Shown: piece after piece, positions 29,557-49,309 of the stretch
Position numbering within the stretch: position 1 is the first letter of the stretch
Layout of the letters: each line of letters starts with the position of its first letter
Notes under the pieces: generated by a model
What the model was told of the DNA's origin: nothing
The model's input: only the letters and a program-made list of their open reading frames with translations
The model's database searches: none
Assembly: GCA_034189315.1 (NCBI GenBank)
Contig: JAXHVC010000003.1
Coordinates: forward strand, 1 to 57,133
Direction of reading: 5' to 3'
DNA: 57,133 nucleotides
Source of the DNA: Chloroflexota bacterium
Lineage (GTDB): Bacteria; Chloroflexota; Dehalococcoidia; UBA2247; JAXHVC01
Translations under genes and position numbers: made by a program

Positions 29557-29607
29557 TGCACTAAGATAGTTATCGTTCTAATGACCACAACTGAATAGTC
29601 GATAAAG

Positions 29608-29800
29608 GGGGTGCCCGAGCGTAAGCGAGGGCTCAAACGAGTGGCAAGTCCGGCGAAAATCCGGCGCAGTCCCGCCTGCTGTAAAAGTCAGAACCCCGGC
29701 CCCCAAAATATCGAACGCTTCCCGCGGAGAAAGGGGGTGCGCTTCATGATTAGAGCACCATAATGTCCCCTTGTTCTCAGGAGCGAGGGGATTTTTCTTT
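29608..29800 (+). promoter_or_regulatory. cobalamin riboswitch-like leader 2 with its own intrinsic terminator
   Basis: Near-identical core (gtccggcgaaaatccggcgcagtcccgcctgctgtaaaagtcagaaccccggc). P1 candidate ggtgccc/gagcacc. Hairpin tcccct...agggga plus atttttcttt at 29766-29800. AGGAGG and GTG 29888 lie downstream. Confidence 0.8.
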
Positions 29801-29887
29801 CCCCTAGCATTGCATCATCTTACCCAGTCATTCGAAAATCATCGATTTTCCGAAAGGGTGAGTTGTTGCCAAAATCAAGGAGGAAAA

Positions 29888-31879: not shown

Positions 31880-31894
31880 GTCTGAAAGTTAAGC

Positions 31895-31926
31895 AGCAAG
31901 TGGGGAGGGAGACCTCCCCACTTGCT
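31895..31926 (+). other. intercistronic perfect stem-loop (14 bp, GAGA loop)
   Basis: agcaagtggggagg-gaga-cctccccacttgct, 16 nt after the stop at 31879. No T run follows, and the next start is at 31957. Confidence 0.5.
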
Positions 31927-31956
31927 AAGATAAACCACCATTATGGAGTATGAATA

Positions 31957-36238: not shown

Positions 36239-37026
36239 CCCTCCTACATGCACATTACAAGGCATTTCTGTGCCTGCTGCTTATTATGATAGTCTTCGGT
36301 ATTGTTCTTACAATACCAATAGTGGCTCCCTCCTCCCCACTGAATGTAAGTGCCTCCGGCAAATGGAGTATCGTCGCAATGCTCGTTGCTGCGCTGTCGG
36401 TACTGGCCTATTATTTTGAGTTCGACAGCTTCGCCCAGAGCGCTAAGGAGATAGCTTTGGTATCTATGATGGGCACGCTCTCTGCCATTCTGAGAGTACC
36501 CTTTGCTCCCATCCCCAGTGTACAACCCTCAACCTTTCTTATTATCTGTACTGGGTATGTATTCGGTCCTCTTGCAGGATTCATGATCGGTGCTACCACC
36601 CCAATAATCTCCAACTTCTTTTTGGGTCAAGGTCCCTACACACTCTTCCAAATATTCGCCTGGGGTTTTATTGGTTTGGGGGCAGGCTATCTCGGGAGAC
36701 TTGAACTTGGTGGCCGATGGCTGCTGGTTGTATTGCTACTCTATGGCATCCTCTCAGCATATCTGTTTGGTGCAATTATGAATCTCTGGGACTGGGTGAC
36801 ATATGCCTACCCACTCACATGGAGCACCTATGTTGCAAGGATCACGTTAAGCTTGTGGTTCGACACCTTCCACGCTATAGGCAATGTCCTCTTTTTAATG
36901 TTTTTTGGAACGAAGACCATAGTGATTTTGCAGAGGTTCAGGAAGCGTTTTAGTGTATTCTATGTCCCGTCCGGTGCAATAGAAAAGGTCGTCACGGACT
37001 CGCAGGATATTACAAACCATAGATAA
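36235..37026 (+). CDS. ECF S-component-like integral membrane protein (substrate-capture subunit, specificity unassigned)
   Basis: ATGA overlap with the ATPase stop. About 6-7 TM helices. The segment LSAILRVPFAPIPSVQPSTFLIICTGYVFGPLAGFMIGA resembles S-component cores. Its position as the last gene of the ECF module supports the call. Confidence 0.65.
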   Translation: MTLLHAHYKAFLCLLLIMIVFGIVLTIPIVAPSSPLNVSASGKWSIVAMLVAALSVLAYYFEFDSFAQSAKEIALVSMMGTLSAILRVPFAPIPSVQPSTFLIICTGYVFGPLAGFMIGATTPIISNFFLGQGPYTLFQIFAWGFIGLGAGYLGRLELGGRWLLVVLLLYGILSAYLFGAIMNLWDWVTYAYPLTWSTYVARITLSLWFDTFHAIGNVLFLMFFGTKTIVILQRFRKRFSVFYVPSGAIEKVVTDSQDITNHR

Positions 37027-37193: not shown

Positions 37194-37227
37194 TAAAAAA
37201 AGCGCCCTCTTTTTAATGAGAGGGCGC
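37194..37227 (-). terminator. rho-independent terminator of the lipoprotein gene
   Basis: Read on the minus strand: gcgccctct-cattaaaa-agagggcgc followed by a T8 run, 19 nt after the stop at 37246. Confidence 0.7.
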
Positions 37228-37245
37228 CTACTGAGCAAATTAGAA

Positions 37246-38154
37246 TTATGGGTAGCTGGAAACATCCTCTATGATCATATCTGAAGGAACCTCAAAAAGA
37301 CTATCGCTGATACTCCCGCCAACTTCGATGTTAATAAACTCCATTACAGACAAAAGTTCTCCCTCATGCCTTGTCTCAATCTTTATAGTCAAGCCATTCT
37401 TCTTCCATATCCAGGTTCTGACAGTATTTGTGGTATTGCCAGCATCTAAAGGGTGCTCATAAATCGAACAAGCCTTACCATCAACAACCTCACTACCAAC
37501 AAACCTGGGACTATATTGTGTTATATCTTCATCTTCAGTAGCATCGAGTACATATTTGATGGCTGTATCATCACCTTCCTGCCAATTATAACTCACACCA
37601 TGTTCACCTTCATCCATATGGTGAACAGCGATAGTATTGTAGGTAATATCTTCATGCGTATACGACCCTTCTATCCGAGACTTGCTACCTTTATTCCAAT
37701 ATCGAGAAGTTGTTGTTTGTTCACCAGATTCCAAATAATTAGTACCCACAATTTCCATTTGGAATACGTCTATAAGTCCCGCCTTAGTAAGCAAGTCACT
37801 GAGTTCATCATCGTCACCGCTATCGTCGTTCTGTCCATCAGCGTTGTTGTTACTGTCATCATCACTTTGGTCGCCAGAGTCATCGTCGCTATTATTGCTG
37901 TTTTCCCCATCAGAATCATTGTTACTGCTATCATCGTTTTGGTCGCCAGAGTCATCGTCGCTATTATTGCTGTTTTCCCCACCAGAACCATTGTTGCTAC
38001 TATCATCATTTTGTCCACTAGAATCGTTTTCGTTGTATTGCTCACTCTGTTCACTCGGCTCAGCCTCGTCATCTCCACATCCAACAACTAGGAAGGAGCC
38101 TAGTAGGACACATCCTATAAGGGCTAAGCTCAAAATTATCCGAAACTTATTCAT
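37246..38154 (-). CDS. lipoprotein with an acidic Asp/Ser/Asn/Gly repeat linker and a LolA-like/DUF4412-like C-terminal domain
   Basis: ATG 38154 gives MNKFRIILSLALIGCVLLGSFLVVGCGDD (lipobox LVVGC). The track start at 38265 adds a non-signal extension. The linker carries repeated NDDSSNNGSGGENSNNSDDDSGDQ units. Confidence 0.8.
   Translation of the reverse strand: MNKFRIILSLALIGCVLLGSFLVVGCGDDEAEPSEQSEQYNENDSSGQNDDSSNNGSGGENSNNSDDDSGDQNDDSSNNDSDGENSNNSDDDSGDQSDDDSNNNADGQNDDSGDDDELSDLLTKAGLIDVFQMEIVGTNYLESGEQTTTSRYWNKGSKSRIEGSYTHEDITYNTIAVHHMDEGEHGVSYNWQEGDDTAIKYVLDATEDEDITQYSPRFVGSEVVDGKACSIYEHPLDAGNTTNTVRTWIWKKNGLTIKIETRHEGELLSVMEFINIEVGGSISDSLFEVPSDMIIEDVSSYP
37845..38030. repeat. 72-bp in-frame tandem repeat (2 full copies plus partial flanks) inside the lipoprotein gene
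   Basis: ggtcgccagagtcatcgtcgctattattgctgttttcccca starts at 37869 and again at 37941 (offset 72 nt), with only a few substitutions between the copies. Confidence 0.8.
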
Positions 38155-38398
38155 ACTGTTAACATATCCTCCTTTTGATGCCACAAAGAGGGCTTTTGTA
38201 TTGTGGCAAGTTGTACCATGCGGAACACAGCAATATACATGATACAGGGGATGATTGTGCATCACAAGAGTTTCCGCATAGTGAGGATACTCCTGGAAGA
38301 TTCATATCCATCGAGGGATTCTTGCGGTTAAGAGGAGCAATTATCAAAGCTAATGTTAACTGTCAGTTGCTATTTTACCCCACATAATAGCATGCAAA

Positions 38399-38444
38399 CA
38401 GGGGCCTGCCGTTAGACAGATTTCTCACACGCAGATTGCCCCTG
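38399..38444 (-). terminator. possible terminator hairpin after the PilB-like ATPase gene
   Basis: caggggc...gcccctg outer stem with an inner ctgc/gcag pairing. The minus-strand 3' flank is tttgcat, which is only a weak T tract. Confidence 0.3.
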
Positions 38445-38470
38445 ATTTGTCTCTATGTTCAGCATCCCAG

Positions 38471-40180
38471 CTATAGAACCGTATAAACAGTACGTAACAC
38501 CTCTGATGGTGTGGTTATGCCCTGCTTAACCTTGATCATCCCATCATGTCTCATCGTCATCATACCCTCTTCAAGGCTCTTGTCCCTGATGGCCGTAGAA
38601 TCTCCACCTTCCACAACAAGTCTCTTTATTTCCTCTGTCATGATAAAGAGTTCAAAAAGCCCAGTTCTACCCAAATATCCTGTATCAGAACAGAAATTAC
38701 ACCCATATCCACAATTGAACTTATCTAGTTCCTCACCCATCTCCTCGCTATAGACGATTCTTTCTTCTGCTTTGGGTTCACATGGCCTGTGGCAATGAGG
38801 GCATACACAACGCACCATCCTTTGCGATATAACACCAATTAGAGCAGATGCCAATAGAAACCGATCCACACCAAGATTAGTCATGCGGAAGAGCGTAGAC
38901 ACAACATCATTGGCATGCACCGATGCAAGAACCAAATGTCCTGTTAGAGATGCTTGTATTGCTATCTGTGCTGTATCTTCGTCCCTGATCTCCCCTACTA
39001 GGACTATATCTGGATCAACCCGCAGAACACCCTTGAGACAACTGGCAAAGGTTATTCCCGCTTTGGGATTGATCTCGCTAGCACCTATCTTGGCAAATCG
39101 ATACTCCACAGGGTCCTCAATGGTCATGATGTGCTTCTCATCCCTATCCATTTGATTAAGTGAAGCATATAGCGTGGTGGTTTTTCCAGATCCGGTTGGC
39201 CCGGCGACAAGGATCATCCCATAGGGCGCAGCCATCATACGCTGATACTTTTCAAGTGTTTCGGGAAGGAAGCCCAAATCAGATAGTTGGAACAGGGGCA
39301 ATGTCTTATCCAGAATCCGAAGTACTACCAGTTCCCCATCCAGCGTATTATACGTAGCGACTCGTATATCTAACGACCGTTCGGCAACGGTGAAATCCAT
39401 CTGGCCATCTTGAGCATGCCTGCGCTCTGTGATATCCATGCCCGCCATCACCTTTATTCTTGAAACCAGCTGCTGGTGCGTTTCGATTGGAAGGGACATG
39501 GCGTCATGCAATACACCATCTATCCTAAAGCGAATACGGATTCCATCTTTTTGTGGTTGGAAATGGATATCAGATGCACGACGTCTTATCCCTTCACCTA
39601 CAACCAGATCGATAAGACGAACAATTGGGCTCTCTCTTACCACCTTTTGTTCTTTTGCTACTTGATACTTCAGCTCTTCACGGAACGTAGTTGTTATGAC
39701 ACGTTTTAGTTCTTCCTCGATCATATCAGTAGAAGTGTAGTTCAGATCGAGTGTTCGCTGGACCTGCTCAGGAATTGCCATAGCGGGCATGATCTTCATA
39801 TTGGTATGGTTGGAAACAAGTTCTATCCCCTCCGTATCATCAGGATCTGCCATTACAAGGACAAGAGCATCTCCAACCACATCCAAAGGTACCATCTTGC
39901 GTTCTCGTGCCATCTTCTCCGGAACCAGTTTTAGTGTATCCTCCGGTATCTTATGCGTTGTCAGATCAATCAATGGGACATTCAGCTGAATACTAGTAGC
40001 CATAGCAAGGTCTTCGGAAGAGATATAACCACTATCAATCACCACCTGTCGAAAGGGTGTACCAGTCTTTTTGTGGAGCTGAATCGCAGAATCCACCTGG
40101 TCACGATCCATCAGGCGGTTTTGTACAAGTATATCTGCTAATTCCTTTATCTTCGGTGGCACACCTGAAACTTTAGCCAC
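38471..40180 (-). CDS. PilB/GspE-family type II/IV secretion (type IV pilus assembly-type) ATPase with an N-terminal T2SSE_N/MshEN-like domain
   Basis: AGGAGG lies 6 nt before GTG 40180. Walker A GPTGSGKTT, Asp box, Walker B LVGEIRD, His box. Tetracysteine zinc motif CPHC...CNFC. N-terminal LADILVQNRLMDRDQVDSAIQLH / FRQVVIDSGYISSEDLAMATSIQ repeats. Confidence 0.9.
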   Translation of the reverse strand: MAKVSGVPPKIKELADILVQNRLMDRDQVDSAIQLHKKTGTPFRQVVIDSGYISSEDLAMATSIQLNVPLIDLTTHKIPEDTLKLVPEKMARERKMVPLDVVGDALVLVMADPDDTEGIELVSNHTNMKIMPAMAIPEQVQRTLDLNYTSTDMIEEELKRVITTTFREELKYQVAKEQKVVRESPIVRLIDLVVGEGIRRRASDIHFQPQKDGIRIRFRIDGVLHDAMSLPIETHQQLVSRIKVMAGMDITERRHAQDGQMDFTVAERSLDIRVATYNTLDGELVVLRILDKTLPLFQLSDLGFLPETLEKYQRMMAAPYGMILVAGPTGSGKTTTLYASLNQMDRDEKHIMTIEDPVEYRFAKIGASEINPKAGITFASCLKGVLRVDPDIVLVGEIRDEDTAQIAIQASLTGHLVLASVHANDVVSTLFRMTNLGVDRFLLASALIGVISQRMVRCVCPHCHRPCEPKAEERIVYSEEMGEELDKFNCGYGCNFCSDTGYLGRTGLFELFIMTEEIKRLVVEGGDSTAIRDKSLEEGMMTMRHDGMIKVKQGITTPSEVLRTVYTVL

Positions 40181-40228
40181 TTACCGCCTCCTATGACCTC
40201 AATCATGCAAGAACAATACTTAGTATCA

Positions 40229-40609
40229 TTATGCATCATCATTCTTAGCTAGCAATTTCTGGACAGCATCCGCCAGATCGGCAGGACTGGCGGGTTTTGT
40301 CAGATACTCATCAGCCCCGACTTTCAGCCCCGACTCTCTATCGCTTTCTCGTGCCTTGGCTGAGAGCATCAGGATTGGAAGCCTTGCTGTTGATTCTGCA
40401 GCCCTGAGGCGTCGGCAGATCTGGAAACCATCCATTCCTGGTAACATTATGTCTAGAATCACCAGATCAGGTTTCTCTTCTTCAACCTTACTCAGGCCTT
40501 CCAGTCCATTGGAAGCAGTGACCACTTGATAGCCCTTCTGCTCCAACACAAATTGAGCAAACCTCGTTGCACTGGGATCATCATCTGCTATCAGTATTTT
40601 TTCCGACAT
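40229..40609 (-). CDS. single-domain CheY-like response regulator
   Basis: AGGAGG lies 7 nt before ATG 40609 (MSEKILIADDD). The canonical residues DDD, LVILDIMLPGMDG, MLSA and YLTKP are all present. Confidence 0.85.
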   Translation of the reverse strand: MSEKILIADDDPSATRFAQFVLEQKGYQVVTASNGLEGLSKVEEEKPDLVILDIMLPGMDGFQICRRLRAAESTARLPILMLSAKARESDRESGLKVGADEYLTKPASPADLADAVQKLLAKNDDA

Positions 40610-40613
40610 GTAT

Positions 40614-42551
40614 TTACCTCCTAGTATGCCCCGTGGTCTCCTGGCACACCGCTGCGTCGGCCAATGGAACTGTGAAACTAAATATACTTCCCCTTCCAAG
40701 CTCGCTCTCTACCCAAATGTCCCCACCATGTCCTTCGACAATCTGTCTGCTTATATGAAGGCCCAATCCAGTCCCGCCCGCAGAACGGGTCGCAGAGCTA
40801 TCTACCTGATAGAACTTTTGGAAGAGCTTGTTAATGGATTCTTCAGGAATTCCAACCCCATTATCTATCACTTGTGTTAGTAGTTTATTACCACTCTCCT
40901 TTACTCGAACCACGATATTGCTTTGCTGCGGGCTGAATTTGATTGCATTGGCTACAAGATTTGTGATCACCTGGCGTAACGCCTGCTCATCTCCCTGCAC
41001 AATCGTAGAAAGAGCATGTACTTCTGTACTAAAGCTTATCCCTTTATCAGCCGCAACAGTACCAAGCTTCACAACTACATTGCCCACAACCTCTTCCATA
41101 GAAACAGGTTCCTTCTTGAGAACCTTTCTCCCAGATTCAAGGGCAAAGGTATCAAGGAGATCATCAACTAGTTCATTAAGATGACGGCTTTGATCCTCCA
41201 CAATGCCCAAGAATTCCCGCTGTGTCTCAGAATCTGTAACACTCCCATCCTTTAAAAGTCCAACAAAACCTCTGATGGAGTGTAAAGGGCTTCTTAGCTC
41301 ATGAGAAACGTTGGCAACAAAATCATCCTTGAGTTGTTGTAGCTCCTTCTCTCGTGTTATGTCATGAACCACTCTCACCTCGCCTAAGTGATTGCCAAGG
41401 CTATCACTAACACGTGAAGCATAGACCTTCAATACTCTTCGCTGTGTCCCACCAAGTAGCACCTCAATCTCATCCGAGTCCCGAGCAAGTGCTAGCGTTG
41501 CTAGTATCGTAAGACGAGGATCTGTGTCGGTCCCCATCACGGCTACATGCATCACATCCTCTGTCCTCAATCCAAGCATCGTCTCCAAGGCGGGATTAAT
41601 ATTCACTACTCTACATTCATCGTCGAGCATGAACAGTCCATCGGACATACTAGCGATAATCGCATCCAGACGCTCCCTCTCAGCAGCCAAAGCCTCCTCC
41701 GCCAGTTTTCGATCGGTGATATCTGTTATGAATCCCTCAACAGACCGACTTCCTCCACGTGATGATATAACCCCTGCCCCTTTTTCCCAAACCCATCGGA
41801 CCTCACCGCTAGCTGAACGAATTCTATATATAGTCTGAAATGGGATTTTATTTTCTAAAGATTCTCTAATCTCAGCTAACACACGTTTTCTATCGTCTTC
41901 ATGAACCAGTTGAAAAAAGGGGCCACCCTTCTTATTCACTAATTCAATAGAAGTAAAACCCGTTAGTTCTGTGCATCCATCGCTAGCAAAGGTTAATGTT
42001 CTGTACTCATCATCTTGGCACCTATATGCCATACCCGGCAGGTTACTCATCAACACAGAAAGAGACCGTTGGCTCTCCTCTAGTTTAGCTTCTGTTTCAG
42101 CCAGCCTCCTTTCGGTACGCAATTGGTCAGCAACCCTACCTACAACCTGGGGAAGAACATCTAGGAAATTAGCATCTTTGACCAGATAGTCCCGAGCACC
42201 AAGTTTCATCATCTGGACCGCAGTTCTTTCATCACCCCTGCCGGTCATTACGATAAAGGGGACACGAGTTTTTGAATCCGCAAGTTTCTCAATCACCTGC
42301 TCTCCTGTCATATCTGGCAATTGGAAGTCAAGCAGCAACAACACTTCCGGATCGACTCTAACCTTCTCAAGTGCTTCTGCACCCATCCCCACAGTTGAGA
42401 TTCCAAACCCCGCGCGTTGCAGACGTCTGCTAATCAATTGTGACAATCCCTGGTCATCCTCAACAATCAGAATAGACTGGACTGCCTTATTATGATCCTC
42501 TATAACTTCCGATTCTTGCACCCTCGATATGCTTTGCCCCTTTTTCTTCAA
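40614..42551 (-). CDS. hybrid sensor histidine kinase: N-terminal receiver + PAS (MAYRC-type) + second PAS + HisKA + HATPase_c
   Basis: GGAGG lies 5 nt before TTG 42551. The track start at 42632 would overlap the upstream gene by 65 nt. REC (ILIVEDDQG...LLLDFQLPDMTG...VMTGRGD...DYLVKD). PAS (LPGMAYRCQDDEY). H-box VSHELRSPLHSIRGF. N/G boxes (NLVANAIKF; DNGVGIP; GTGLGLHI). Confidence 0.85.
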   Translation of the reverse strand: MKKKGQSISRVQESEVIEDHNKAVQSILIVEDDQGLSQLISRRLQRAGFGISTVGMGAEALEKVRVDPEVLLLLDFQLPDMTGEQVIEKLADSKTRVPFIVMTGRGDERTAVQMMKLGARDYLVKDANFLDVLPQVVGRVADQLRTERRLAETEAKLEESQRSLSVLMSNLPGMAYRCQDDEYRTLTFASDGCTELTGFTSIELVNKKGGPFFQLVHEDDRKRVLAEIRESLENKIPFQTIYRIRSASGEVRWVWEKGAGVISSRGGSRSVEGFITDITDRKLAEEALAAERERLDAIIASMSDGLFMLDDECRVVNINPALETMLGLRTEDVMHVAVMGTDTDPRLTILATLALARDSDEIEVLLGGTQRRVLKVYASRVSDSLGNHLGEVRVVHDITREKELQQLKDDFVANVSHELRSPLHSIRGFVGLLKDGSVTDSETQREFLGIVEDQSRHLNELVDDLLDTFALESGRKVLKKEPVSMEEVVGNVVVKLGTVAADKGISFSTEVHALSTIVQGDEQALRQVITNLVANAIKFSPQQSNIVVRVKESGNKLLTQVIDNGVGIPEESINKLFQKFYQVDSSATRSAGGTGLGLHISRQIVEGHGGDIWVESELGRGSIFSFTVPLADAAVCQETTGHTRR

Positions 42552-42567
42552 GACGGCCTCCGTAAAC

Positions 42568-44205
42568 TCAACTACGGACTGTTCGAAGTCTAATCGCAGT
42601 TCGCGCAATACGTTGATCCGGGTTATCGACACTTAAGGGTAAGGATATAAAAAACTTGCTGCCCACACCTGGTTCCGATTCGAGCCATACACTACCACCA
42701 TGCATACTAATAACCTTTTTCACTACGGTTAATCCCATACCCTGTCCATCACCAGCATTTGGATCAATTCGATAGAATATTTGAAAGACTTTTGACTGTT
42801 GTTCGTATGGGATTCCAACACCATTGTCTTCGACACAATATACCACCTGATCCTTTTCCCTCTGGCCAGTTATTCGGATAATCGGGTCCCGGTCACGATC
42901 AGAGAACCTCAACGCATTATCCAGAAGACAAGAAAAAACCTGCTTGATTTGGTTTGGATCCCCATAGCACAAAGGAAGGTCATCCATAGTCACACTTGCA
43001 TGAATCCTGCTAATACCATGATCATAACTGATCTTTACGTCTGATAGTAGCTGATTCATATCCAACTCCCGGTAGTTTGGAGAAGAGCGTTCCAGACGTG
43101 AAACACGTAACAGTCCGGCAAGCATGGAATCCATGCTTGCCATTCCTCTCTGAATATAGGTGACGGAATTGGGTATATCCGATTCGAGTAGCTCAAATAC
43201 CTGGTCCTGACACTCCAGCGGTATATCTATATCCCTCAAAATAGATGATAGCTCTTGAATAGAGTTGCGCAATTCACTACCAAAACCCTGGACATTCACT
43301 AATGGAGTCCTCAAATCATGAGAGGAGACATAGATGAGCTCCCTCAACTCTATGTTCTTCTCTACAAGCGCTGCTGTGAGTCTCTGTCGTTCCTTCTCTG
43401 CCCTCTTCTGATGAGTTACATCTCTAACTATGGCAAGCTCAGCCGTACCGCCCTTGTATTGAATAGGATTGGTATTGACTTCGACCCAGATAAGCTCTTC
43501 TGGTGTCTTCCAAAAAGGCACCTCGAGAGTATGAGATTCCAAACTAGTCTTAGCCGCATTCTCTATACCAATGATGGTCATCTGTTTTTGATCCTCCGGC
43601 ACTCCAGCAAGTGTCTCGGTAAGTCCCTTAGACAATAAGCCCAGTATGTTTTCATTTAGGACCTCGGACTCTGAAAAGCCAAAGGTTTGATAAAAACGAT
43701 GATTAGCAAACATGATCTTTCCATCCCTTGAAAGGACAATACCCTCTATGCTCATTTCGATGAGTGTAGAGTACATCTCCTCAGCTTCGAGCAGCTCCAT
43801 ATGTGTACGTTTGCGCTCCATTGCATATCTAATAGTGCGCGATAGCAATTCGTGATTCAATTGCCCCTTGATCAAGTAATCCTCTGCACCCTCCTGTATT
43901 GCTTGAAGTGCCATATTTTCATCGTCTAAACCTGTCAGCACAACAATAGGCACTCGGTTATTCTCTCTCACTAGACCTGCTATAGTGTGAAGACCTCTAG
44001 CATCTGGGAGAGAGAGATCTACTAGCAGAATATCAAACACACCTTCATGCAGTTTCTCAATTGCCAGGGAAAGTCTGTCAGCCAGCTCAAACTTAAAGGC
44101 GTATGGATTATTCTTTGTCAGCATCTTTCTAACAATAGCGGCATCTCCAGGATCGTCTTCGACCAAGAGAACGCTAATCCGGTTATCTACCGGTTCTAGA
44201 GTCAT
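42568..44205 (-). CDS. sensor histidine kinase with N-terminal receiver + PAS + HisKA (SHDLRTPL type) + HATPase_c
   Basis: REC (VLLVEDDPGD...LLVDLSLPD...VVLTGLDD...DYLIKG). PAS (YSTLIEMSIEGIVL...). H-box YVSSHDLRTPLVNVQGF. ATPase boxes (LLDNALRF; DNGVGIP; GQGMGLTV). Confidence 0.85.
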   Translation of the reverse strand: MTLEPVDNRISVLLVEDDPGDAAIVRKMLTKNNPYAFKFELADRLSLAIEKLHEGVFDILLVDLSLPDARGLHTIAGLVRENNRVPIVVLTGLDDENMALQAIQEGAEDYLIKGQLNHELLSRTIRYAMERKRTHMELLEAEEMYSTLIEMSIEGIVLSRDGKIMFANHRFYQTFGFSESEVLNENILGLLSKGLTETLAGVPEDQKQMTIIGIENAAKTSLESHTLEVPFWKTPEELIWVEVNTNPIQYKGGTAELAIVRDVTHQKRAEKERQRLTAALVEKNIELRELIYVSSHDLRTPLVNVQGFGSELRNSIQELSSILRDIDIPLECQDQVFELLESDIPNSVTYIQRGMASMDSMLAGLLRVSRLERSSPNYRELDMNQLLSDVKISYDHGISRIHASVTMDDLPLCYGDPNQIKQVFSCLLDNALRFSDRDRDPIIRITGQREKDQVVYCVEDNGVGIPYEQQSKVFQIFYRIDPNAGDGQGMGLTVVKKVISMHGGSVWLESEPGVGSKFFISLPLSVDNPDQRIARTAIRLRTVRS

Positions 44206-44319
44206 ATTCTCATCCTTATAATGACGTTCATTAACTTAATATAACATTGTCATCAGAGACATAGTGGATGAGATTAATTCCGCTTGTCTGATGGAGAAGC
44301 ACATATCAAAACCCCTCTA

Positions 44320-45927
44320 TCAAGCACTCTTATGCCATTCCTTGTCACCACTTGGGAGTAAAACATTGAAACGGCTTCCCACCCCGGGTTCCGATTCCAC
44401 CCATACCTTACCATCATGCCGACTCAGTATCTTCTTCACTATGGTCAGTCCTAAACCCTCTCCACTTGTAGTCTGTGGATCCAAGCGTTGAAAGGTTTCA
44501 AATACCTTCTCTCTATCCTCCTCGGGTATGCCAATACCATTATCCTCAACACAATAGGTGACATAGTCACCAACGCTCTTATTAGAGATCTTAACAACCC
44601 CAGGTCTCTCCGGATCAAGGTACTTTAACGCATTACCAATAAGATTGGAGAATACCTGGTTAATCTGTACAGAATCCCCTTTACAGGGAACCAAGCTCTC
44701 CACGTGTAAGCTCACATTCTTCTCCCTAATGGCATATTCGAAGCTGTCCTCAATATCCGAAACCAACCGATTCATGTCCACACCCTCAACGTTAAGCGCA
44801 ACGGTTCCTGCACGCGATAGCTTCAACAACCCATCAACCAAGGTCCCCATTTTTTCCACGCTGCCATGGATATACTGAAGGGCATCCGGCATATCCGATC
44901 TAACAATAGGGATTACTTTTTTTCGTACCTCAGGTGGTATATCTTTGTTATCCAGGTCAGAGTAGAGTTCACTCACAGAATGGTCTAGTTCTTTGGTGAA
45001 TCCTTGAATATTGACCAATGGGGACCTGAGCTCATGTGACGTGGCATAGATGATTTGTTCTAGCTCCTTGTTTTTCTCAGTAAGCTCATCGTTAAGTCTT
45101 TCTCGTTCTTGCTCAACATGTTTCCGCTCGGTAACATCCATGATGAAGCCCTCAACACCTTCAATCTGGCAATTATCCGAATAGATCCCTGCCCCCTTCT
45201 CCAAAACCCACTTCTCCGCACCATTCGCAGAGAATATTCGATATGTCAATTGAAATGGGCACTTCTGCTCAACCGCCATTTGAATATTGCCTAGTACCAT
45301 TTCACGATCTTCCTTGTGCACGAGCTGGATAAAGGCAATTCTACTGTTACGCTGTAGGTCAGAGGGCTGATATCCAGTAAGACCTATACATCCACTACTA
45401 ACAAATATCATAGTTCTACGATCATCATCCAAACAGCGATAGGCCATGCCCGGGAGATTTCCCATTAAAGTGGTAAGCGATCTCTGAGATTCCCTGAGTT
45501 CAGACTCGGCCTTATTCAACCTCCTCTCGGTCTCCAGCTGATCGAACACACGAGTCACTACTCCAGGAAGAAGGTCAAGCAATCCTGTGTCCTTTGCCAG
45601 GTAGTCACGGGCACCCAGCTTCATCATTTCCACCGCAATCCTCTCATCCCCATGCCCTGTCATCACTACAAAGGGAATATCCATTCCCCTGGCTCTTACA
45701 GAGTCAATCACCTGTTTCCCTGTCATGTCTGGTAAGCGGTAATCCAGCAACAGCAATCCTTGGGCAGTGCCACTGGCCATCTCAATAGCCTCTGCTCCCA
45801 TCCCGGCGTATTTAACCTGAAGCCCTATACTTTCCAGACTCTTCCTGATAAGGTGAGCTAATCCCTGATCATCTTCAACAATAAGTACTCGCCTACCAGT
45901 CTTGGCATGCTGCTTCTTACTGGGCAT
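44320..45927 (-). CDS. hybrid sensor histidine kinase: receiver + MAYRC-type PAS + HisKA + HATPase_c
   Basis: GGTGGAG lies 6 nt before ATG 45927; GTG 45939 is the alternative start. REC (VLIVEDDQG...LLLDYRLPDMTG...VMTGHGD...DYLAKD). PAS LPGMAYRCLDDD. H-box ATSHELRSPLVNIQGF. ATPase boxes are present. The gene overlaps the upstream gene's end by 11 nt. Confidence 0.85.
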   Translation of the reverse strand: MPSKKQHAKTGRRVLIVEDDQGLAHLIRKSLESIGLQVKYAGMGAEAIEMASGTAQGLLLLDYRLPDMTGKQVIDSVRARGMDIPFVVMTGHGDERIAVEMMKLGARDYLAKDTGLLDLLPGVVTRVFDQLETERRLNKAESELRESQRSLTTLMGNLPGMAYRCLDDDRRTMIFVSSGCIGLTGYQPSDLQRNSRIAFIQLVHKEDREMVLGNIQMAVEQKCPFQLTYRIFSANGAEKWVLEKGAGIYSDNCQIEGVEGFIMDVTERKHVEQERERLNDELTEKNKELEQIIYATSHELRSPLVNIQGFTKELDHSVSELYSDLDNKDIPPEVRKKVIPIVRSDMPDALQYIHGSVEKMGTLVDGLLKLSRAGTVALNVEGVDMNRLVSDIEDSFEYAIREKNVSLHVESLVPCKGDSVQINQVFSNLIGNALKYLDPERPGVVKISNKSVGDYVTYCVEDNGIGIPEEDREKVFETFQRLDPQTTSGEGLGLTIVKKILSRHDGKVWVESEPGVGSRFNVLLPSGDKEWHKSA

Positions 45928-46456
45928 TGCTCTCTCCACCTATTGCTGGCACTTGAATAACGGCAAGGAAGAGACCTAATTCACGAATTGTGGCTACGAA
46001 CTTATCATAGTCTATTGGTTTAGTGATATAGTGGCTACACCCTAATGTATGGCACTTGTCTATCTCTCGAGGATCATCCGTGGTGGTCAGCATTATCACT
46101 GGCATCTTTTTTAAAACTCTATCCCCTTTTATCCTTTCGAGAACCTGCACACCATCCACTCGAGGCATACGTATATCCAGCAATAGCAAGTAAGGCGTGC
46201 CGATCACTCGGTGTGGGCCATCACCTTTTTCAAACAAGAAGTCCAATGCCTCCTGACCATCCTTGAAGTGAATTATCTGATTGGTTATGCCTGCCCTCTT
46301 GAGATTCTTCTGAATTAGGGAGGCATGGCCCATATCATCTTCGGCGATTAAAATGACTACCTGTTCGTTCATCGTACTGCTCTTCGGCACCTCCTGTCCT
46401 TGGCCCTTTTCTACAATCATACTTTGCTCCACCTGCACCCTGTTATTGTTATTCAT
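45917..46456 (-). CDS. single-domain response regulator (Rcp1/CheY-like) with an N-terminal extension
   Basis: VILIAEDDMGHA...LLLLDIRMPRVDG...MLTTTDD...HYITKP. ATGA start/stop overlap with the upstream gene at 46453-46456. Confidence 0.85.
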   Translation of the reverse strand: MNNNNRVQVEQSMIVEKGQGQEVPKSSTMNEQVVILIAEDDMGHASLIQKNLKRAGITNQIIHFKDGQEALDFLFEKGDGPHRVIGTPYLLLLDIRMPRVDGVQVLERIKGDRVLKKMPVIMLTTTDDPREIDKCHTLGCSHYITKPIDYDKFVATIRELGLFLAVIQVPAIGGESNAQ

Positions 46457-46941
46457 CGCAAAGAAGCCTTTCTAGCACTATCGCAATCCTTCTCGACTTC
46501 TGCATATTCTGGCCCCATACCAGCCCGTTCGAGTATGCGACACATTACCTGCGGCAAGAGGTCCCTGAATTGACTGTTTTTGACCAAACAGGCAGAAGCT
46601 CCCAATCCAATCATCTCCTCTGCCAAATGCGCGTCATCATGCCCCGTCATGACTAAGAATGGCACCTTGATCTGTCTCTCATTGAGGATTTCAACCACCT
46701 GCTTCCCTGTCATATCCGGTAACTGGTAGTCCAGCAAAAGTACAATATCAGGATTGGTGCTAATAAAATCTATTGCCCCTGCCCCACTTGCCACGCAGAC
46801 GACTTTTAATCCAAGCCTCTCGAGTCCCTTGGTGATCAGATGACATGTCACCTCGGCGTCTTCTGCAACTAATACCGTTCGGCAAACACTCTCACAACCA
46901 TCACTCACTGTTAATATCCTCTCTGGATTACCGGCATCCAA
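46453..46941 (-). CDS. stand-alone receiver-domain protein, paralogous to the receivers of the 44320 and 40614 kinases
   Basis: VLVAEDAEV...VLLLDYQLPDMTGKQVVEIL...FLVMTGHDD...LVKNSQFRDLLPQVMCRILE aligns closely with the N-terminal REC domains of the two MAYRC-PAS kinases. The start is uncertain: TTG 46941 has no SD, and GTG 46908 has GAGAGGA upstream. Confidence 0.75.
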   Translation of the reverse strand: MDAGNPERILTVSDGCESVCRTVLVAEDAEVTCHLITKGLERLGLKVVCVASGAGAIDFISTNPDIVLLLDYQLPDMTGKQVVEILNERQIKVPFLVMTGHDDAHLAEEMIGLGASACLVKNSQFRDLLPQVMCRILERAGMGPEYAEVEKDCDSARKASLR

Positions 46942-46953
46942 AGCATCCGTTTT

Positions 46954-48705
46954 CTAATTCCTCGGTAACGCTACAAAGAATTTACTCCCCACTCCTGGCT
47001 CAGACTCCAACCATATCCTACCTTCATGCCGACTGAGGATCCTTTTCACCACAGCAAGCCCCAATCCCTCTCCAGTGCCTCCACCCGGATTCACCTGATG
47101 AAATATCTCAAAAACCCTATCCTGCTCCTCCTTGGGAATACCAAGCCCATTATCTTCTACACAGTAGATTGAGTAATTCCTATCCACTTTTCCAGTTACA
47201 GTCACCCTAGGAGACCTGCCTTGGTCACGATACTTCAATGCGTTATCTACTAGATTTGAAAAGACCTGGTTGATTTGCACTGCATCCCCCTTACAGGATG
47301 GCAGTTCATCCACTTTAGTAGCCATACCTACATCTCTGATACGAAATTCGAAGTTCTTTTCAATCTCGGAAATCATGTATTTCATATCAAGTTCCTCAAA
47401 ATTAAGCGCAGCCCTCCCTGCTCTGGAGAGCCTAAGTAGCCCAGCTAGCAACGTATCCATCTTTGTAACACTAGCATTGATATACTCTAGAGCCCCGGCA
47501 ATGTCCTCCTCCAGCAGAGGAACAACCTTCTGATATAGCTCAGAATCATCTTCCAGAATGGAGCTAAGCTCCTGGATTGAATAGCCCAATTCCTTGGCAA
47601 AACCTTGTACATTTATTAGAGGGGAGCGCAAATCATGAGAGGTCACAAAGATGATCTGCTCCAACTCCGTATTCTTCTCCACAATCTCCGCCCGTAGCCT
47701 TTCCCTTTCCTCATCTGCCTGCTTGCGTTGAGTGACATTCCTAGCCAGTATCAATTCAGCATTCTTACCACTGTATTTAATAGGGGTTGTACGAGCATCA
47801 ATCCAAATATGATCACCAACACCATTCTTTATAGGTATCTCATATGAATTCGAACCGATTTCACCCTTCGCAGAATCAGCAAGCCTCCTCTGGATCATTT
47901 TTAGTTCTTCCGCCGATATCAAACTGAACATCCCAGATAGCCTACCATTGAGCAATTTAATCAAGGATTGTCCAATTAGCTCTGACCTTTCCAGACCAAA
48001 GACTTCAAGAACACCTTGATTAGCAAAGGTGATATACCCGTCGCATAACACAATAATCGAATCAGGGCTTAGTTCCACCAGCGTTGAGTATTTTTCCTCG
48101 CTCTCTCTCAATGCCTGCTCGGACCTCTTTACCTCCTCCAGGGCTTGATCAAGCTCTATGTGAGCCTGTGTGAGAATCTGACTGTGCTCCTCCAAAGCCG
48201 AAATTAGTTGCTGCTGATCATCATCTATCTTCTGGCGTTGAATCGGATCCTCATAGCGTGAGGGAGTCCTGGACTTTTTCCTCTCAATCGAATTGCATAT
48301 CGATCTGGCAACACCTCTATCAACATCCAGATCCCTCAGGATGTAGTCCTCAGCCCCTTCCTTAAGCGCTTGAATCCCTATTTCACCATCATCGGAATCA
48401 GCTAGTACCACAATGGGAACCATCGCGTTTGCTCCTGATATCGCAGTGACAGCACCTACACCTTGGCTATCAGGAAGTGATAGGTCCAAAAGTACAGCAT
48501 CGTAGCTTTGCGTCTTCAGGTTCTTCACTGCCGCAGAAAGGCTCTTAGCACCTTTGACCTCAAAAGAAGCCTCCGTGCTCCCAGCCAATACCTTACGTAC
48601 ATTCCGCGACTCGTTTGGATCATCATCTACCAGCAAGACCTTAAACTGATTGCCATTTCCTGGTCGATTAACGTTAGATCTTATACCATGACTTCGCATA
48701 GCCAT
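46954..48705 (-). CDS. sensor histidine kinase: receiver + coiled coil + PAS + HisKA (SHDLRSPL type) + HATPase_c
   Basis: REC (VLLVDDDPNE...VLLDLSLPD...DYILRD). A long helical linker. PAS (YSTLVELSPDSIIVL). H-box FVTSHDLRSPLINVQGF. ATPase boxes (LVDNALKY; DNGLGIP; GEGLGLAV). First gene of the co-directional block. Confidence 0.85.
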   Translation of the reverse strand: MAMRSHGIRSNVNRPGNGNQFKVLLVDDDPNESRNVRKVLAGSTEASFEVKGAKSLSAAVKNLKTQSYDAVLLDLSLPDSQGVGAVTAISGANAMVPIVVLADSDDGEIGIQALKEGAEDYILRDLDVDRGVARSICNSIERKKSRTPSRYEDPIQRQKIDDDQQQLISALEEHSQILTQAHIELDQALEEVKRSEQALRESEEKYSTLVELSPDSIIVLCDGYITFANQGVLEVFGLERSELIGQSLIKLLNGRLSGMFSLISAEELKMIQRRLADSAKGEIGSNSYEIPIKNGVGDHIWIDARTTPIKYSGKNAELILARNVTQRKQADEERERLRAEIVEKNTELEQIIFVTSHDLRSPLINVQGFAKELGYSIQELSSILEDDSELYQKVVPLLEEDIAGALEYINASVTKMDTLLAGLLRLSRAGRAALNFEELDMKYMISEIEKNFEFRIRDVGMATKVDELPSCKGDAVQINQVFSNLVDNALKYRDQGRSPRVTVTGKVDRNYSIYCVEDNGLGIPKEEQDRVFEIFHQVNPGGGTGEGLGLAVVKRILSRHEGRIWLESEPGVGSKFFVALPRN

Positions 48706-49309
48706 ACTCCATCTCGTTGCAATTCTTTAATCGTTCGCCCAAGTACCATCTCTTCCTGACAACGTTGATACTCGATATAACAAATCACGAAAAACAATTA
48801 AACATAACCCATACTTCGGACACTATTAACGTCAAGATGGTATTCATTCATTATTATATCTCTAAATTATGCTTATTATATTGTCTTAACTCATGTTATC
48901 ATATTTATTCGTTATTTTTATTCGTCTAATATCTCCTTATATTATATTTACTTGTTCTAAGTCAAGCTTCTTTACCTAAACCAAGAGAACACGATTATAC
49001 ATATACCTATATCAGTTATTTTTCTTTTTCCTATCACTAGGTTATTTTATCATCTATTTCATCTTATTGTTTACAATATCTACCTGCCTTGTTAATTTTA
49101 TTCAGCTCCAGCATGATTTTAAGAAGAGAGTAATCATTCATCAGAATGGCCTTCACACGAAAACACACCATATTGACATAGTGAATGCTAAGGCTTCTGT
49201 AGAGAGGCAATTTGATTCGCTATCACCCAACTTGGTCATGACTAGAACTTGTCAAACCTGTTCAAAACCTATATAAGAAAACTATCGTTCTGAGAGGGAG
49301 GCCTTGATT

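What the first reader, a model, noticed from the sequence alone, without database searches (positions are those of the whole stretch)
38471..48705. Eight-gene co-directional block: four receiver-containing PAS histidine kinases, three stand-alone receivers and a terminal orphan PilB/GspE-type ATPase
Seen: all eight ORFs are on the minus strand. The junctions, in order, are 12 nt, a 4-nt overlap, an 11-nt overlap, 114 nt, 16 nt, 4 nt and 48 nt. Every kinase starts with its own receiver domain. No DNA-binding or other enzymatic output domain occurs anywhere in the block. The only non-signalling gene is a 569-aa secretion/pilus-type ATPase with a T2SSE_N-like N-domain, and no pilin, PilC/GspF platform, PilM-Q or prepilin peptidase lies within the window. 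Established: PilB/GspE ATPases normally work with a polytopic platform protein and are usually encoded with it. Multi-kinase networks converging on receivers are typical of branched phosphorelays. Inference: this looks like a phosphorelay whose physiological output is direct control of a hexameric secretion/pilus ATPase by a receiver protein rather than transcription. Alternatively the ATPase has been co-opted for another role.
Basis: partly seen in the sequence, partly recalled or inferred. Interest (0 to 1): 0.65.

Follow-up and report, generated by a model that had tools for sequence, protein, structure and literature searches.

The report
Two-component cascade wired to PilB ATPase
Four soluble sensor kinases and three small receiver proteins sit in front of a type IV pilus assembly motor gene, and relatives keep the last kinase, last receiver and motor together (sometimes fused), so the receiver probably switches the motor directly, a principle already shown experimentally in other bacteria.

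Summary
Eight co-directional minus-strand genes (38471-48705) encode four REC-PAS-HisKA-HATPase kinases, three output-less receivers and a 569-aa PilB-type ATPase. No pilin, PilC, PilM/N/O, PilT or PilD gene lies anywhere in the 57 kb window.

Comparative genomics changes the emphasis. The conserved unit is the last three genes, HK4 - RRc - ATPase. All 7 relatives picked only by ATPase similarity (50-91% identity) have an RRc orthologue directly upstream of the ATPase. None of 102 distant PilB/GspE loci do. In relatives at about 47-51% ATPase identity, the same kinase-receiver-PilB module sits inside complete pilus loci (pilin, PilC, minor pilins, PilO, PilM/N, PilT). REC-PilB fusion proteins occur in several separate clusters.

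The orphan ATPase is under strong purifying selection (dN/dS 0.06), keeps all catalytic and zinc-binding motifs, and shows no accelerated divergence.

Best reading: a lineage-specific (probably Chloroflexota) phosphorylation cascade whose terminal receiver acts directly on the pilus extension motor. Here it has become detached from the other pilus genes. The mechanism has precedents (EmvR, DrdR, PixG), so this is a new variant of a known kind. Co-transcription, phosphotransfer, binding and the presence of pilC elsewhere in the genome remain untested.

The parts
48706..49303 (-). About 600-nt AT-rich intergenic region upstream of HK1; probable promoter region of the block (inferred).
   Evidence: Sequence. 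Best sigma-70-like match is 48902-48875 (10 of 12), but promoter-like hits over the region are at the chance level. No Rfam element.
46954..48705 (-). HK1: REC-PAS-HisKA-HATPase soluble hybrid kinase, 583 aa. Type-A kinase core. H-box His codon at 47635-47637. The receiver is atypical (T87 to A, K109 to R).
   Evidence: Pfam; receiver alignment; paralogy (core 51-55% to HK2 and HK3; 48% to the L077_4140 kinase).
46453..46941 (-). RRa: stand-alone receiver, 162 aa or fewer (start ambiguous). A paralogue of the HK2/HK4 receiver domains (44-47% identity).
   Evidence: Pfam; BLASTP; phospho-Asp present; start alternatives.
45917..46456 (-). RRb: stand-alone receiver, 179 aa or fewer (start ambiguous). 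Orthologue of the receiver that lies between the two kinases in relatives' cassettes.
   Evidence: 67% to L077_7263, 36-38% to L005_3493 and L076_5464; Pfam; canonical receiver residues.
44320..45927 (-). HK2: REC-PAS_3-HisKA-HATPase, 535 aa. A chimera: the REC-PAS part is like HK4 (52-58%) and the kinase core is like HK1/HK3 (46-55%). H-box His codon at 45034-45036.
   Evidence: Pfam; domain-level BLASTP; start context.
44206..44319 (-). 114-nt AT-rich gap between HK2 and HK3; a possible internal promoter. No terminator.
   Evidence: Sequence; fold not different from shuffles (z = -0.52).
42568..44205 (-). HK3: REC-PAS-HisKA-HATPase, 545 aa. Paralogue of HK1 (40% full length). H-box His codon at 43318-43320.
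   Evidence: Pfam; BLASTP.
40614..42551 (-). HK4: REC-PAS_3-PAS-HisKA-HATPase, 645 aa. PhoR/WalK-like (type-B) kinase core. The conserved kinase partner of RRc. H-box His codon at 41301-41303.
   Evidence: 49.5% full length to L005_3935, 46% to L003_1024, 84% to the L001 fragment. The kinase core is 46-54% identical to the kinase upstream of RRc in L073, L074 and L075. NCBIfam best hits PnpS, WalK, PhoR.
40229..40609 (-). RRc: 126-aa output-less receiver of PhoB/OmpR type. Phospho-acceptor D53 codon at 40451-40453. The conserved neighbour of the ATPase and the proposed direct effector.
   Evidence: 93, 76, 66, 65, 63, 62 and 60% identity to the receiver directly upstream of PilB in L001, L003, L005, L073, L078, L076 and L074. 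60-65% to the REC of REC-ParA proteins in L004 and L075. 57.5% to the REC fused to PilB in L007. Canonical DD/D/S/K residues. dN/dS 0.073.
40181..40228 (-). 48-nt spacer between RRc and the ATPase with an AGGAGG ribosome-binding site. No hairpin.
   Evidence: Same length and same RBS in L001; fold z = -0.64.
38471..40180 (-). PilB-type (PilT-class) assembly ATPase, 569 aa. GSPII/MshEN N-domain. Walker A 39179-39202, Asp box 39101-39124, Walker B 38981-39016, His box 38909-38947, tetracysteine 38792-38803 and 38690-38701.
   Evidence: Pfam. PDB best matches are Thermus PilF 6f8l and Geobacter PilB 5tsg/6olj over the full length. NCBIfam PilB 525 bits, GspE 491 bits, both below the equivalog cut-offs. 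Motif coordinates. dN/dS 0.062.
39986..40144 (-). Residues 13-65 of the ATPase: two degenerate copies of the 24-residue MshEN c-di-GMP-binding motif (10 of 22 key positions kept).
   Evidence: Motif scoring, against the consensus given in PMC11731258. NCBIfam c-di-GMP motif model scores 32.6 bits, cut-off 38.

Best explanation
The block is a lineage-specific signalling module, probably from Chloroflexota, that controls the type IV pilus extension motor.

Shown:
- The terminal trio HK4 - RRc - PilB-type ATPase is an ancestral, syntenic unit. In relatives it lies at the head of complete monoderm-type pilus loci (pilin, kinase, RRc, PilB, PilC, minor pilins, PilO, PilM/N, sometimes PilT).
- RRc has no output domain and carries a canonical phospho-acceptor site.
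- RRc-type or other receivers are found fused to PilB, or to a ParA/MinD ATPase next to PilB, in several lineages.
- All four kinases are soluble and carry their own N-terminal receiver.
- HK1, RRa, HK2 and HK3 arose by duplication and domain shuffling of the conserved cassette 'type-A kinase - RRb - REC-PAS kinase (HK4 type) - RRc'.

Inferred:
- Intracellular cues sensed by the PAS domains drive the type-A kinases (HK1, HK3, the HK2 core).
- These phosphorylate the receivers of HK2 and HK4, with RRa and RRb acting as branches or phosphate sinks.
- This sets HK4 activity. HK4 phosphorylates RRc at D53.
- RRc~P binds the PilB hexamer, probably at its N-terminal GSPII/MshEN region. The c-di-GMP motif there is degenerate, and in one fusion family a receiver replaces that region. 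Binding raises or lowers ATPase activity or recruitment, and so pilus extension.
- In this genome pilB has merely been separated from pilC, pilin and pilMNO genes, which are expected elsewhere.
For: 1. Synteny. All 7 relatives chosen only by ATPase similarity (L001, L003, L004, L005, L073, L074, L075; 50-91% identity) carry an RRc orthologue immediately upstream of the ATPase, 5 stand-alone and 2 as REC-ParA. Two of three loci chosen by RRc similarity have PilB immediately downstream. Background: 0 of 102 distant PilB/GspE loci have a receiver directly upstream, and 1 of 102 has a kinase core.
2. RRc is at least as conserved as the ATPase itself: 76% versus 62% in L003, 66% versus 56% in L005.
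3. Rosetta-stone fusions. P0015 has a REC 57.5% identical to RRc fused to PilB. P0282, P0283 and P0310 have a REC in place of the first ~66 residues of PilB, inside a PilC-pilin locus (L079). Further REC-PilB representatives are P0331, P0332, P0354, P0333 and P0339.
4. Full pilus loci contain the same module: L073, L075, L076, L078.
5. The ATPase is intact and constrained. All motifs are present. dN/dS is 0.062 against the 91% relative. Mean identity of its core to 109 outgroup PilBs is 43.6%, within the 42.3-45.0% range of full-locus PilBs.
6. All seven receivers keep the phospho-Asp and all four kinases keep the H-box.
7. Experimental precedents for output-less regulators acting on PilB: EmvR binds PilB and represses its ATPase (PMC11973254); DrdR binds PilB and PilT and enhances their activity (PMC13507683); only phosphorylated PixG binds PilB1 (PMC11181946).
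Against: - No experiment or transcript data exist for this organism. Phosphotransfer, RRc-ATPase binding and co-transcription are all inferred.
- No PilC, pilin or PilM gene is in the 57 kb window, and the rest of the genome could not be searched. A working pilus in this organism is therefore unproven.
- The same orphan state occurs in L001, L003 and L074 (two orphan modules in one MAG), which could mean a pilus-independent role.
- L077 carries the kinase-RRb-kinase-RRc cassette with no ATPase beside it, so RRc-type receivers need not always act on an adjacent PilB.
- P0015 is a single-contig fusion and could be a frameshift or stop-loss artefact.
- The order of phosphotransfer among the four kinases is speculation drawn from paralogy alone.
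Confidence: 0.6

Rival explanations
1. Only the last three genes (HK4-RRc-ATPase) form the functional unit. HK1-RRa-RRb-HK2, and possibly HK3, are a separately transcribed paralogous signalling cassette with other targets. It lies next to the trio only because it arose by tandem duplication.
For: The conserved core in L001, L003, L073, L074 and L078 is just kinase-RRc-PilB. HK1, HK2 and HK3 share a kinase core different from HK4's, and HK2 is a domain chimera. A 114-nt AT-rich gap lies between HK2 and HK3. L077 shows that the cassette can exist without the ATPase.
Against: L005, L076 and L077 keep a two-kinase, two-receiver cassette (kinase-RRb-REC kinase-RRc), so an upstream tier is ancestral. 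HK4 has its own canonical receiver that needs a phosphodonor. No terminator-like structure lies in any internal gap.
Confidence: 0.3
2. The orphan ATPase has been co-opted. The genome has no cognate pilus machinery, and the receiver-controlled hexameric ATPase powers or signals something else (for example regulation of polysaccharide production, as reported for Myxococcus PilB).
For: No platform or pilin genes in 57 kb. The orphan state is shared by L001, L003 and L074, with two such modules in MAG GCA_030604825.1. The c-di-GMP motif is most degenerate in orphan copies: 10-14 of 22 key positions, against 17-18 of 22 in full-locus PilBs. The protein scores below the NCBIfam PilB and GspE equivalog cut-offs. 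Precedent: PilB as a signalling protein for EPS (PMC5544727, title and abstract).
Against: The catalytic core, zinc site and N-domain are all intact. There is no rate acceleration relative to full-locus PilBs and purifying selection is strong. Scattered pil genes are common in bacteria (my own knowledge, e.g. Thermus pilF, Pseudomonas pilMNOPQ versus pilBCD). Relatives at 56-57% identity still have PilT next to PilB.
Confidence: 0.15
3. RRc does not touch the ATPase. It is a phosphate sink or connector for HK4, or it acts on another pilus component (PilC, PilM, PilT) or on an unlinked target. The adjacency reflects only co-expression with pilus genes.
For: Single-domain receivers often act as sinks (PixH in PMC11181946). 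In L004 and L075 the RRc-type REC is fused to a ParA/MinD-type ATPase rather than to PilB, which suggests a localisation role like TadZ/CpaE.
Against: Several independent REC-PilB fusions exist. When every other pilus gene has been lost from the neighbourhood, RRc stays with PilB (window, L001, L003, L074).
Confidence: 0.15

Closest known systems
EmvR-PilB (Xanthomonas oryzae pv. oryzicola) and DrdR-PilB/PilT (X. campestris)
   Same: Output-less response regulators that physically bind the PilB motor and repress (EmvR) or enhance (DrdR) its ATPase activity. EmvR is fed by a classical histidine kinase (PMC11973254, PMC13507683).
   Different: Those regulators are orphan genes, not adjacent to pilB, in diderm Proteobacteria. 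Here the receiver is the syntenic neighbour of pilB, has a dedicated PhoR/WalK-like REC-PAS kinase, and sits under a multi-kinase tier. Sequence relatedness to EmvR or DrdR was not tested.
Tax1 (PixL-PixG/PixH) of Synechocystis and Pil-Chp (ChpA-PilG/PilH) of Pseudomonas
   Same: Phosphorylated CheY-like or PatA-type regulators control pilus motor activity or polarity. Only PixG~P binds PilB1, and a second receiver antagonises it (PMC11181946; PMC11656802).
   Different: Those are chemotaxis-type systems with CheA, CheW and an MCP. The window has none of these, only HisKA-type kinases with PAS domains. RRc is PhoB/OmpR-like, not PatA-type.
TadZ/CpaE of Tad (type IVc) pili
   Same: A receiver-like domain joined to a ParA/MinD ATPase and encoded next to the pilus ATPase. 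Relatives L004 and L075 have exactly this architecture, with an RRc-orthologous REC (60-65% identity), directly upstream of PilB.
   Different: The window's RRc has no ParA/MinD part. The partner ATPase is PilB-type (MshEN plus T2SSE with zinc site), not TadA/CpaF. The receiver here has a canonical phospho-acceptor site, whereas the TadZ receiver is described as atypical (my own knowledge, not checked here).
c-di-GMP control of MshE and PilF through the GSPII/MshEN N-domain
   Same: Same domain at the N-terminus of the ATPase (Pfam MshEN 57.7 bits). A regulatory input is received at the N-terminal four-helix region (PMC11731258).
   Different: Only 10 of 22 key motif positions are kept, and both glycines at motif position 3 are lost. 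The NCBIfam motif model scores below its cut-off. In the P0282 family a receiver domain physically replaces this region. This suggests phosphorylation in place of c-di-GMP (inference).

Membership tests
PilB/GspE-type (PilT-class) secretion ATPase | Walker A, Asp box, Walker B and His box of the T2SSE domain | tested here: met
   GPTGSGKT, TIEDPVEY, DPDIVLVGEIRD and LTGHLVLASVHAN align with Thermus PilF. Coordinates. Pfam T2SSE 401 bits.
PilB/GspE-type (PilT-class) secretion ATPase | Tetracysteine zinc-binding motif in the C-terminal domain | tested here: met
   CPHC (460-463) and CNFC (494-497), aligned to CEHC and CERC of PilF.
PilB/GspE-type (PilT-class) secretion ATPase | N-terminal GSPII/MshEN domain | tested here: met
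   Pfam PF05157, 57.7 bits, residues 66-149. Full-length alignment to PilB structures 5tsg, 6olj and 3jc8.
Type IVa pilus assembly ATPase PilB (NCBIfam TIGR02538 equivalog) | Score at or above the curated equivalog cut-off | tested here: not met
   525.1 bits against a cut-off of 675.65. GspE TIGR02533 scores 490.8 against 630.25. PilB is the best-scoring model, but membership of the curated equivalog is not established.
Type IV pilus / T2SS gene cluster | Platform protein (PilC/GspF) and pilins encoded with the ATPase | tested here: not met
   None in 57 kb. Relatives at 47-51% identity do have them. The rest of the genome is not available.
MshEN-type c-di-GMP receptor | Two copies of (R/K/L)LGxx(L/V/I)(L/V/I)xxG(L/V/I)(L/V/I)xxxxLxxxLxxQ separated by 5 residues | tested here: inconclusive
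   4 of 11 plus 6 of 11 key positions. Position-3 Gly is replaced by Ala and by Arg, and the last Gln of motif I by His. NF053729 scores 32.6 bits against a cut-off of 38. Binding itself is not testable here.
Two-component histidine kinases (HisKA type), hybrid with N-terminal receiver | H-box histidine, HATPase_c catalytic domain, receiver with phospho-acceptor Asp | tested here: met
   Pfam HisKA and HATPase_c in all four (HisKA is below its Pfam cut-off in HK1 and HK3 and only matched with an insertion in HK1-HK3). SH(D/E)LR(S/T)PL H-boxes. An Asp aligned to CheY D57 in all receivers.
Output-less response regulators that act on PilB (EmvR/DrdR/PixG-like function) | Receiver-only protein with functional phospho-acceptor site | tested here: met
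   RRc is 126 aa, Response_reg only (108.9 bits), with D9-D11, D53, S83 and K104.
Output-less response regulators that act on PilB (EmvR/DrdR/PixG-like function) | Physical, phosphorylation-dependent interaction with PilB that alters its activity | not testable with these tools
   Only indirect support: conserved adjacency and REC-PilB fusions.
Chemosensory pilus control systems (Pil-Chp, Tax, Frz) | CheA-type kinase, CheW and MCP | tested here: not met
   No CheA, CheW or MCP domains in the block or the window.
TadZ/CpaE | Receiver-like domain fused to a ParA/MinD ATPase | tested here: not met
   RRc ends 20 residues after the receiver. The fusion exists only in relatives L004 and L075.

The most novel reading that the evidence does not exclude
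In this Chloroflexota lineage the PilB N-terminal c-di-GMP sensor has been functionally replaced by a dedicated phosphorylation cascade. The receiver is encoded next to the motor, or fused in place of the c-di-GMP motif. In the window's sub-lineage the receiver-controlled hexameric ATPase may work without a linked pilus platform, that is, as a signal-gated motor recruited to a different or still unrecognised machinery.
Probability: 0.15. Interest if true: 0.7.

Novelty: new variant of a known kind. Interest (0 to 1): 0.45.

Why it matters
Control of type IV pilus motors is understood mainly in Proteobacteria, Myxococcus and cyanobacteria. The 2024 review of PilB cofactors lists no receiver encoded beside pilB, and I found no paper on pilB regulation in Chloroflexota or Dehalococcoidia.

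A syntenic kinase-receiver-PilB module, with natural REC-PilB fusions, gives a clean and genetically compact system for studying how a phosphorylated receiver gates a PilB hexamer. It also suggests an evolutionary swap between c-di-GMP and phosphorylation as the input to the same N-terminal region.

For annotation, it shows two things. These small 'PhoB/OmpR family' proteins in Chloroflexota are not transcription factors. An 'orphan GspE' next to them is most likely the pilus extension motor.

Tried and rejected
- The search for related loci with the ATPase in genome contigs and in metagenome contigs returned only 29-48% identical PilB/GspE from other phyla. The peptide patterns were too generic. 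Neither the source genome nor a close relative was recovered, so a genome-wide search for pilC and pilins was impossible. I reused these loci only as a background set.
- The listing of cluster members gave no organism names. Taxonomy therefore rests only on names attached to homologues: Chloroflexota bacterium (P0102), Chloroflexi bacterium RBG_13_51_18 (P0185) and Dehalococcoidia bacterium (P0286).
- The look-up of sequencing runs found only DNA metagenomes, so operon structure could not be tested.
- Folding of the 114-nt and 48-nt gaps and of the region after the ATPase gave no structure better than shuffles. A GC-rich hairpin, CAGGGGC...GCCCCUG followed by UUUG, lies 30-75 nt after the ATPase stop, but it is not a convincing terminator. 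The only strong terminator (37229-37200) follows the next gene.
- Promoter-like hits are at the chance level (23 found, 23.4 expected).
- No riboswitch or other Rfam element lies upstream of the block.
- I considered that a C-terminal tail after the receiver (HIxxYLxFG in L003, L074 and L004) might be a universal PilB-docking peptide or a remnant of a ParA P-loop. Across 120 RRc homologues the tails differ by sub-clade, and the window's RRc has none. Rejected as a general feature.
- PilC detection downstream of the background PilBs (13 of 86) is probably limited by the sensitivity of the Chloroflexota PilC queries. I did not use it.

Full report
**Observation**

The eight minus-strand ORFs exist as described. 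Pfam gives Response_reg-PAS-HisKA-HATPase_c for the following four:
- 46954-48705 (HK1)
- 44320-45939 (HK2)
- 42568-44205 (HK3)
- 40614-42632 (HK4)

Pfam gives Response_reg alone for 46453-46941 (RRa), 45917-46456 (RRb) and 40229-40699 (RRc). It gives MshEN plus T2SSE (401 bits) for 38471-40180.

- ATG 45927, with GGTGGAGAG upstream
- TTG 42551, with GGAGG 5 nt upstream
- ATG 40609

The starts of RRa and RRb are ambiguous, so two junctions may be a few tens of nt larger.

No output domain occurs in the block. No pilus or T2SS component other than the ATPase occurs anywhere in the window. This was checked three ways:
- Pfam on every ORF of 100 aa or more
- a six-frame prepilin-motif search
- tblastn with PilC, PilT, PilMN, PilO and pilins taken from relatives

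The assembly is supported by independent Logan contigs of the source run. One contig of 8463 bp covers 37952-46414 with a single mismatch, and depth is even. The source is a marine metagenome, and related fragments occur in three marine-sediment runs.

**The ATPase**

It aligns over its full length with the solved PilB/PilF structures: Thermus PilF 6f8l, Geobacter PilB 5tsg/6olj, Myxococcus PilB 3jc8. It aligns with GspE only over the C-terminal two thirds. Walker A, Asp box, Walker B, His box and both CxxC pairs are present.

The best NCBIfam model is PilB (525 bits), then GspE (491 bits). Both are below the equivalog cut-offs. It is therefore a PilB-like member of the family, not a certified equivalog.

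**What is conserved**

I searched the protein database with the ATPase and looked up the contigs of its relatives. The receiver directly upstream (RRc) is an orthologue in every case.

| Locus | RRc identity | ATPase identity | Form of the receiver |
|---|---|---|---|
| L001 | 93% | 91% | stand-alone |
| L003 | 76% | 62% | stand-alone |
| L005 | 66% | 56% | stand-alone |
| L073 | 65% | 51% | stand-alone |
| L074 | 60% | 52% | stand-alone |
| L004 | 60% | 57% | REC-ParA/MinD protein |
| L075 | 65% | 50% | REC-ParA/MinD protein |
| L007 | 57.5% | 51% | fused to the N-terminus of the ATPase |

The kinase upstream of RRc is orthologous to HK4: 49.5% full length in L005, 46% in L003, and 46-54% over the kinase core in L073, L074 and L075.

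Seven of seven loci chosen only by ATPase similarity show the receiver. By contrast, 0 of 102 distant PilB/GspE loci (Acidobacteriota, Proteobacteria, CPR and others) have a receiver directly upstream.

Searching with RRc returned a large family of 126-159-aa receiver-only proteins at 59-66% identity, one of them named Chloroflexi bacterium RBG_13_51_18. Of three long contigs chosen from that list:
- L076 and L078 have RRc followed by PilB, PilC, pilins and PilM(N), and by PilT in L076.
- L077 has the signalling cassette without an ATPase.

**Relation to pilus loci**

L073, L075, L076, L078 and L079 are complete monoderm-type pilus loci: pilin, kinase(s), RRc or a fused REC, PilB, PilC, minor pilins, PilO and PilM/N, with no secretin.

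L004 and L005 keep only PilT after PilB. The window, L001, L003 and L074 keep nothing. L003 and L074 come from the same MAG, GCA_030604825.1.

Synteny between the window and L001 ends exactly at the ATPase stop.

**State of the orphan ATPase**

- dN/dS between the window and L001 (my own Nei-Gojobori script) is 0.062 for the ATPase, 0.073 for RRc and 0.12 for the HK4 C-terminus.
- The 48-nt spacer and its AGGAGG site are conserved.
- The mean identity of the catalytic core to 109 outgroup PilB/GspE proteins is 43.6%, inside the 42.3-45.0% range of the full-locus PilBs. There is no sign of relaxed or redirected evolution of the motor.

The N-terminal c-di-GMP motif does differ. I used the consensus discussed in PMC11731258. 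The paper's text prints LxxxxLxxQ, which would make 25 residues although it calls the motif 24 residues long. I used the 24-residue form LxxxLxxQ, which I recalled from the original MshEN description. With this form:
- the window keeps 10 of 22 key positions;
- other orphan or fused forms keep 10-14 of 22;
- full-locus PilBs keep 17-18 of 22.

The NCBIfam motif model scores 32.6 bits against a cut-off of 38.

**Fusions**

Besides P0015 (a single contig), the family P0282/P0283/P0310 (626 aa) has a receiver joined directly to the PilB position equivalent to residue ~67 of the window protein. The receiver therefore replaces the c-di-GMP motif region. Its gene is followed by PilC and pilins.

An exhaustive HMMER search of 1.84 billion representatives, followed by Pfam, found further REC-PilB architectures in separate 50% clusters: P0331, P0332 (weak REC hit), P0354, P0333 and P0339.

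The P0282 receiver is only 38% identical to RRc. Receiver-to-PilB coupling has therefore probably arisen more than once.

**Architecture of the signalling part**

All seven receivers keep the phospho-acceptor Asp. All four kinases keep the H-box and have no evident membrane segments. They are soluble, PAS-containing sensors.

Domain-level comparison:
- Kinase cores of HK1, HK2 and HK3 are 46-55% identical (type A). They are 39-57% identical to the first kinase of L077 (comparisons of whole window proteins, aligned over the kinase/C-terminal region).
- The HK4 core is a different, PhoR/WalK-like type (NCBIfam).
- Receivers fall into two groups: HK1 with HK3 (41%), and HK2 with HK4 (58%) plus RRa (44-47%).
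- PAS domains: HK1 with HK3 (34%), and HK2 with HK4-PAS1 (52%).
- RRb is 67% identical to the receiver between the two kinases of L077, and 36-38% to those of L005 and L076.

The ancestral cassette is therefore type-A kinase, RRb, REC-PAS kinase of HK4 type, RRc, PilB. The window carries an expanded version in which HK2 is a chimera and RRa is a free copy of the HK2/HK4 receiver.

**Mechanism**

Shown: synteny, orthology, fusions, intact sites.

Inferred:
- The PAS domains set the activity of the type-A kinases.
- These phosphorylate the N-terminal receivers of HK2 and HK4, with RRa and RRb as branches or sinks.
- HK4 phosphorylates RRc.
- RRc~P binds PilB and changes its ATPase activity or its recruitment.

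Published precedents make the last step plausible:
- EmvR binds PilB and represses its ATPase (PMC11973254).
- DrdR binds PilB and PilT and enhances their activity (PMC13507683).
- Only phosphorylated PixG binds PilB1 (PMC11181946).

The PilB cofactor review lists no receiver encoded beside pilB (PMC11656802). I found no literature on this module in Chloroflexota.

**Transcription**

No terminator-like structure lies inside the block or convincingly after the ATPase. Fold energies of the gaps do not differ from shuffles. The only strong terminator (37229-37200) follows the next co-directional gene, a lipoprotein separated from the ATPase by 316 nt and not conserved in L001. Promoter-like matches are at the chance level. 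No RNA data exist. Co-transcription of the tightly spaced genes is likely but untested. The 114-nt gap could hold an internal promoter.

**Verdict**

The idea of receiver-to-ATPase control is well supported by comparative evidence, but the principle is not new. The orphan state is best explained by gene scattering, although a pilus-independent role cannot be excluded without the genome.

This is a new, lineage-specific variant of a known kind of pilus-motor control. It is moderately interesting, mainly because of the compact synteny, the natural fusions and the apparent exchange of c-di-GMP sensing for phosphorylation.

Noticed in passing
window 39986-40144 (ATPase residues 13-65); L073, L075, L076, L078 for comparison: The two MshEN c-di-GMP-binding motifs are much more degenerate in the orphan or fused ATPases (10-14 of 22 key positions) than in PilBs inside complete pilus loci (17-18 of 22). 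This suggests loss of c-di-GMP sensing where the receiver module is the only neighbour.
   Followed up: partly
L079 848-2728 (P0282); also P0283, P0310, P0331, P0354, P0333, P0339: Natural REC-PilB fusion proteins. In the 626-aa family the receiver replaces the first ~66 residues of PilB (the c-di-GMP motif region), and the gene is followed by PilC and pilins.
   Followed up: partly
L004 3050-4237 and L075 1142-2290: In two relatives the RRc-orthologous receiver (60-65% identity) is fused to a ParA/MinD-type ATPase directly upstream of PilB. This is a TadZ/CpaE-like architecture beside a PilB-type rather than a TadA-type motor.
   Followed up: partly
L003 and L074 (both from GCA_030604825.1): One MAG carries two separate orphan kinase-RRc-PilB modules. 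One of them has a long PilB (879 aa) with a ~290-aa C-terminal extension that has no Pfam hit. The same extension is present in the 830-990-aa PilBs P0008-P0017.
   Followed up: no
L077 4140-10387: The kinase - RRb - REC-kinase - RRc cassette occurs without any ATPase beside it. It is followed by a DUF3303 protein and a convergent 1673-aa PKD-repeat protein.
   Followed up: no
window 37246-38154 (-), terminator 37200-37229: A co-directional gene 316 nt after the ATPase encodes a lipoprotein: signal peptide with a VVGC lipobox, two ~20-aa Asp/Ser/Asn-rich repeats, and a C-terminal domain with no family hit. It is followed by the only strong intrinsic terminator of the region. It is not conserved next to the ATPase in L001.
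   Followed up: partly
window 29592-29718 (+) and 29771-37026 (+): A cobalamin riboswitch (32.7 bits, just above the gathering score) precedes a cluster made of a prenyltransferase/terpene-cyclase-like alpha-toroid protein, an unknown protein, DUF4430, CbiQ, a double ABC ATPase and an ECF S-component. This is probably a corrinoid uptake system.
   Followed up: no
window 974-6340 (+): A 1788-aa ORF with no Pfam domain and only a weak local NCBIfam hit (F510_1955 glycosylhydrolase, 51.9 bits, below cut-off).
   Followed up: no
window 12536-14338 (-): A 600-aa leucine-rich-repeat protein (LRR_4 and LRR_8), in a stretch of lower G+C (about 0.40) and strong negative GC skew compared with the rest of the window.
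   Followed up: no
P0335, P0347 and similar (~1000 aa); P0336 (1047 aa): Among distant relatives there are tandem double-T2SSE proteins, and one protein that combines T2SSF (platform) and T2SSE (ATPase) domains in a single chain.
   Followed up: no
window 25861-25933 (+), 18382-18455 (-): Two tRNA genes. The mechanical ORF 25876-26235 overlaps the first tRNA and is probably spurious.
   Followed up: no
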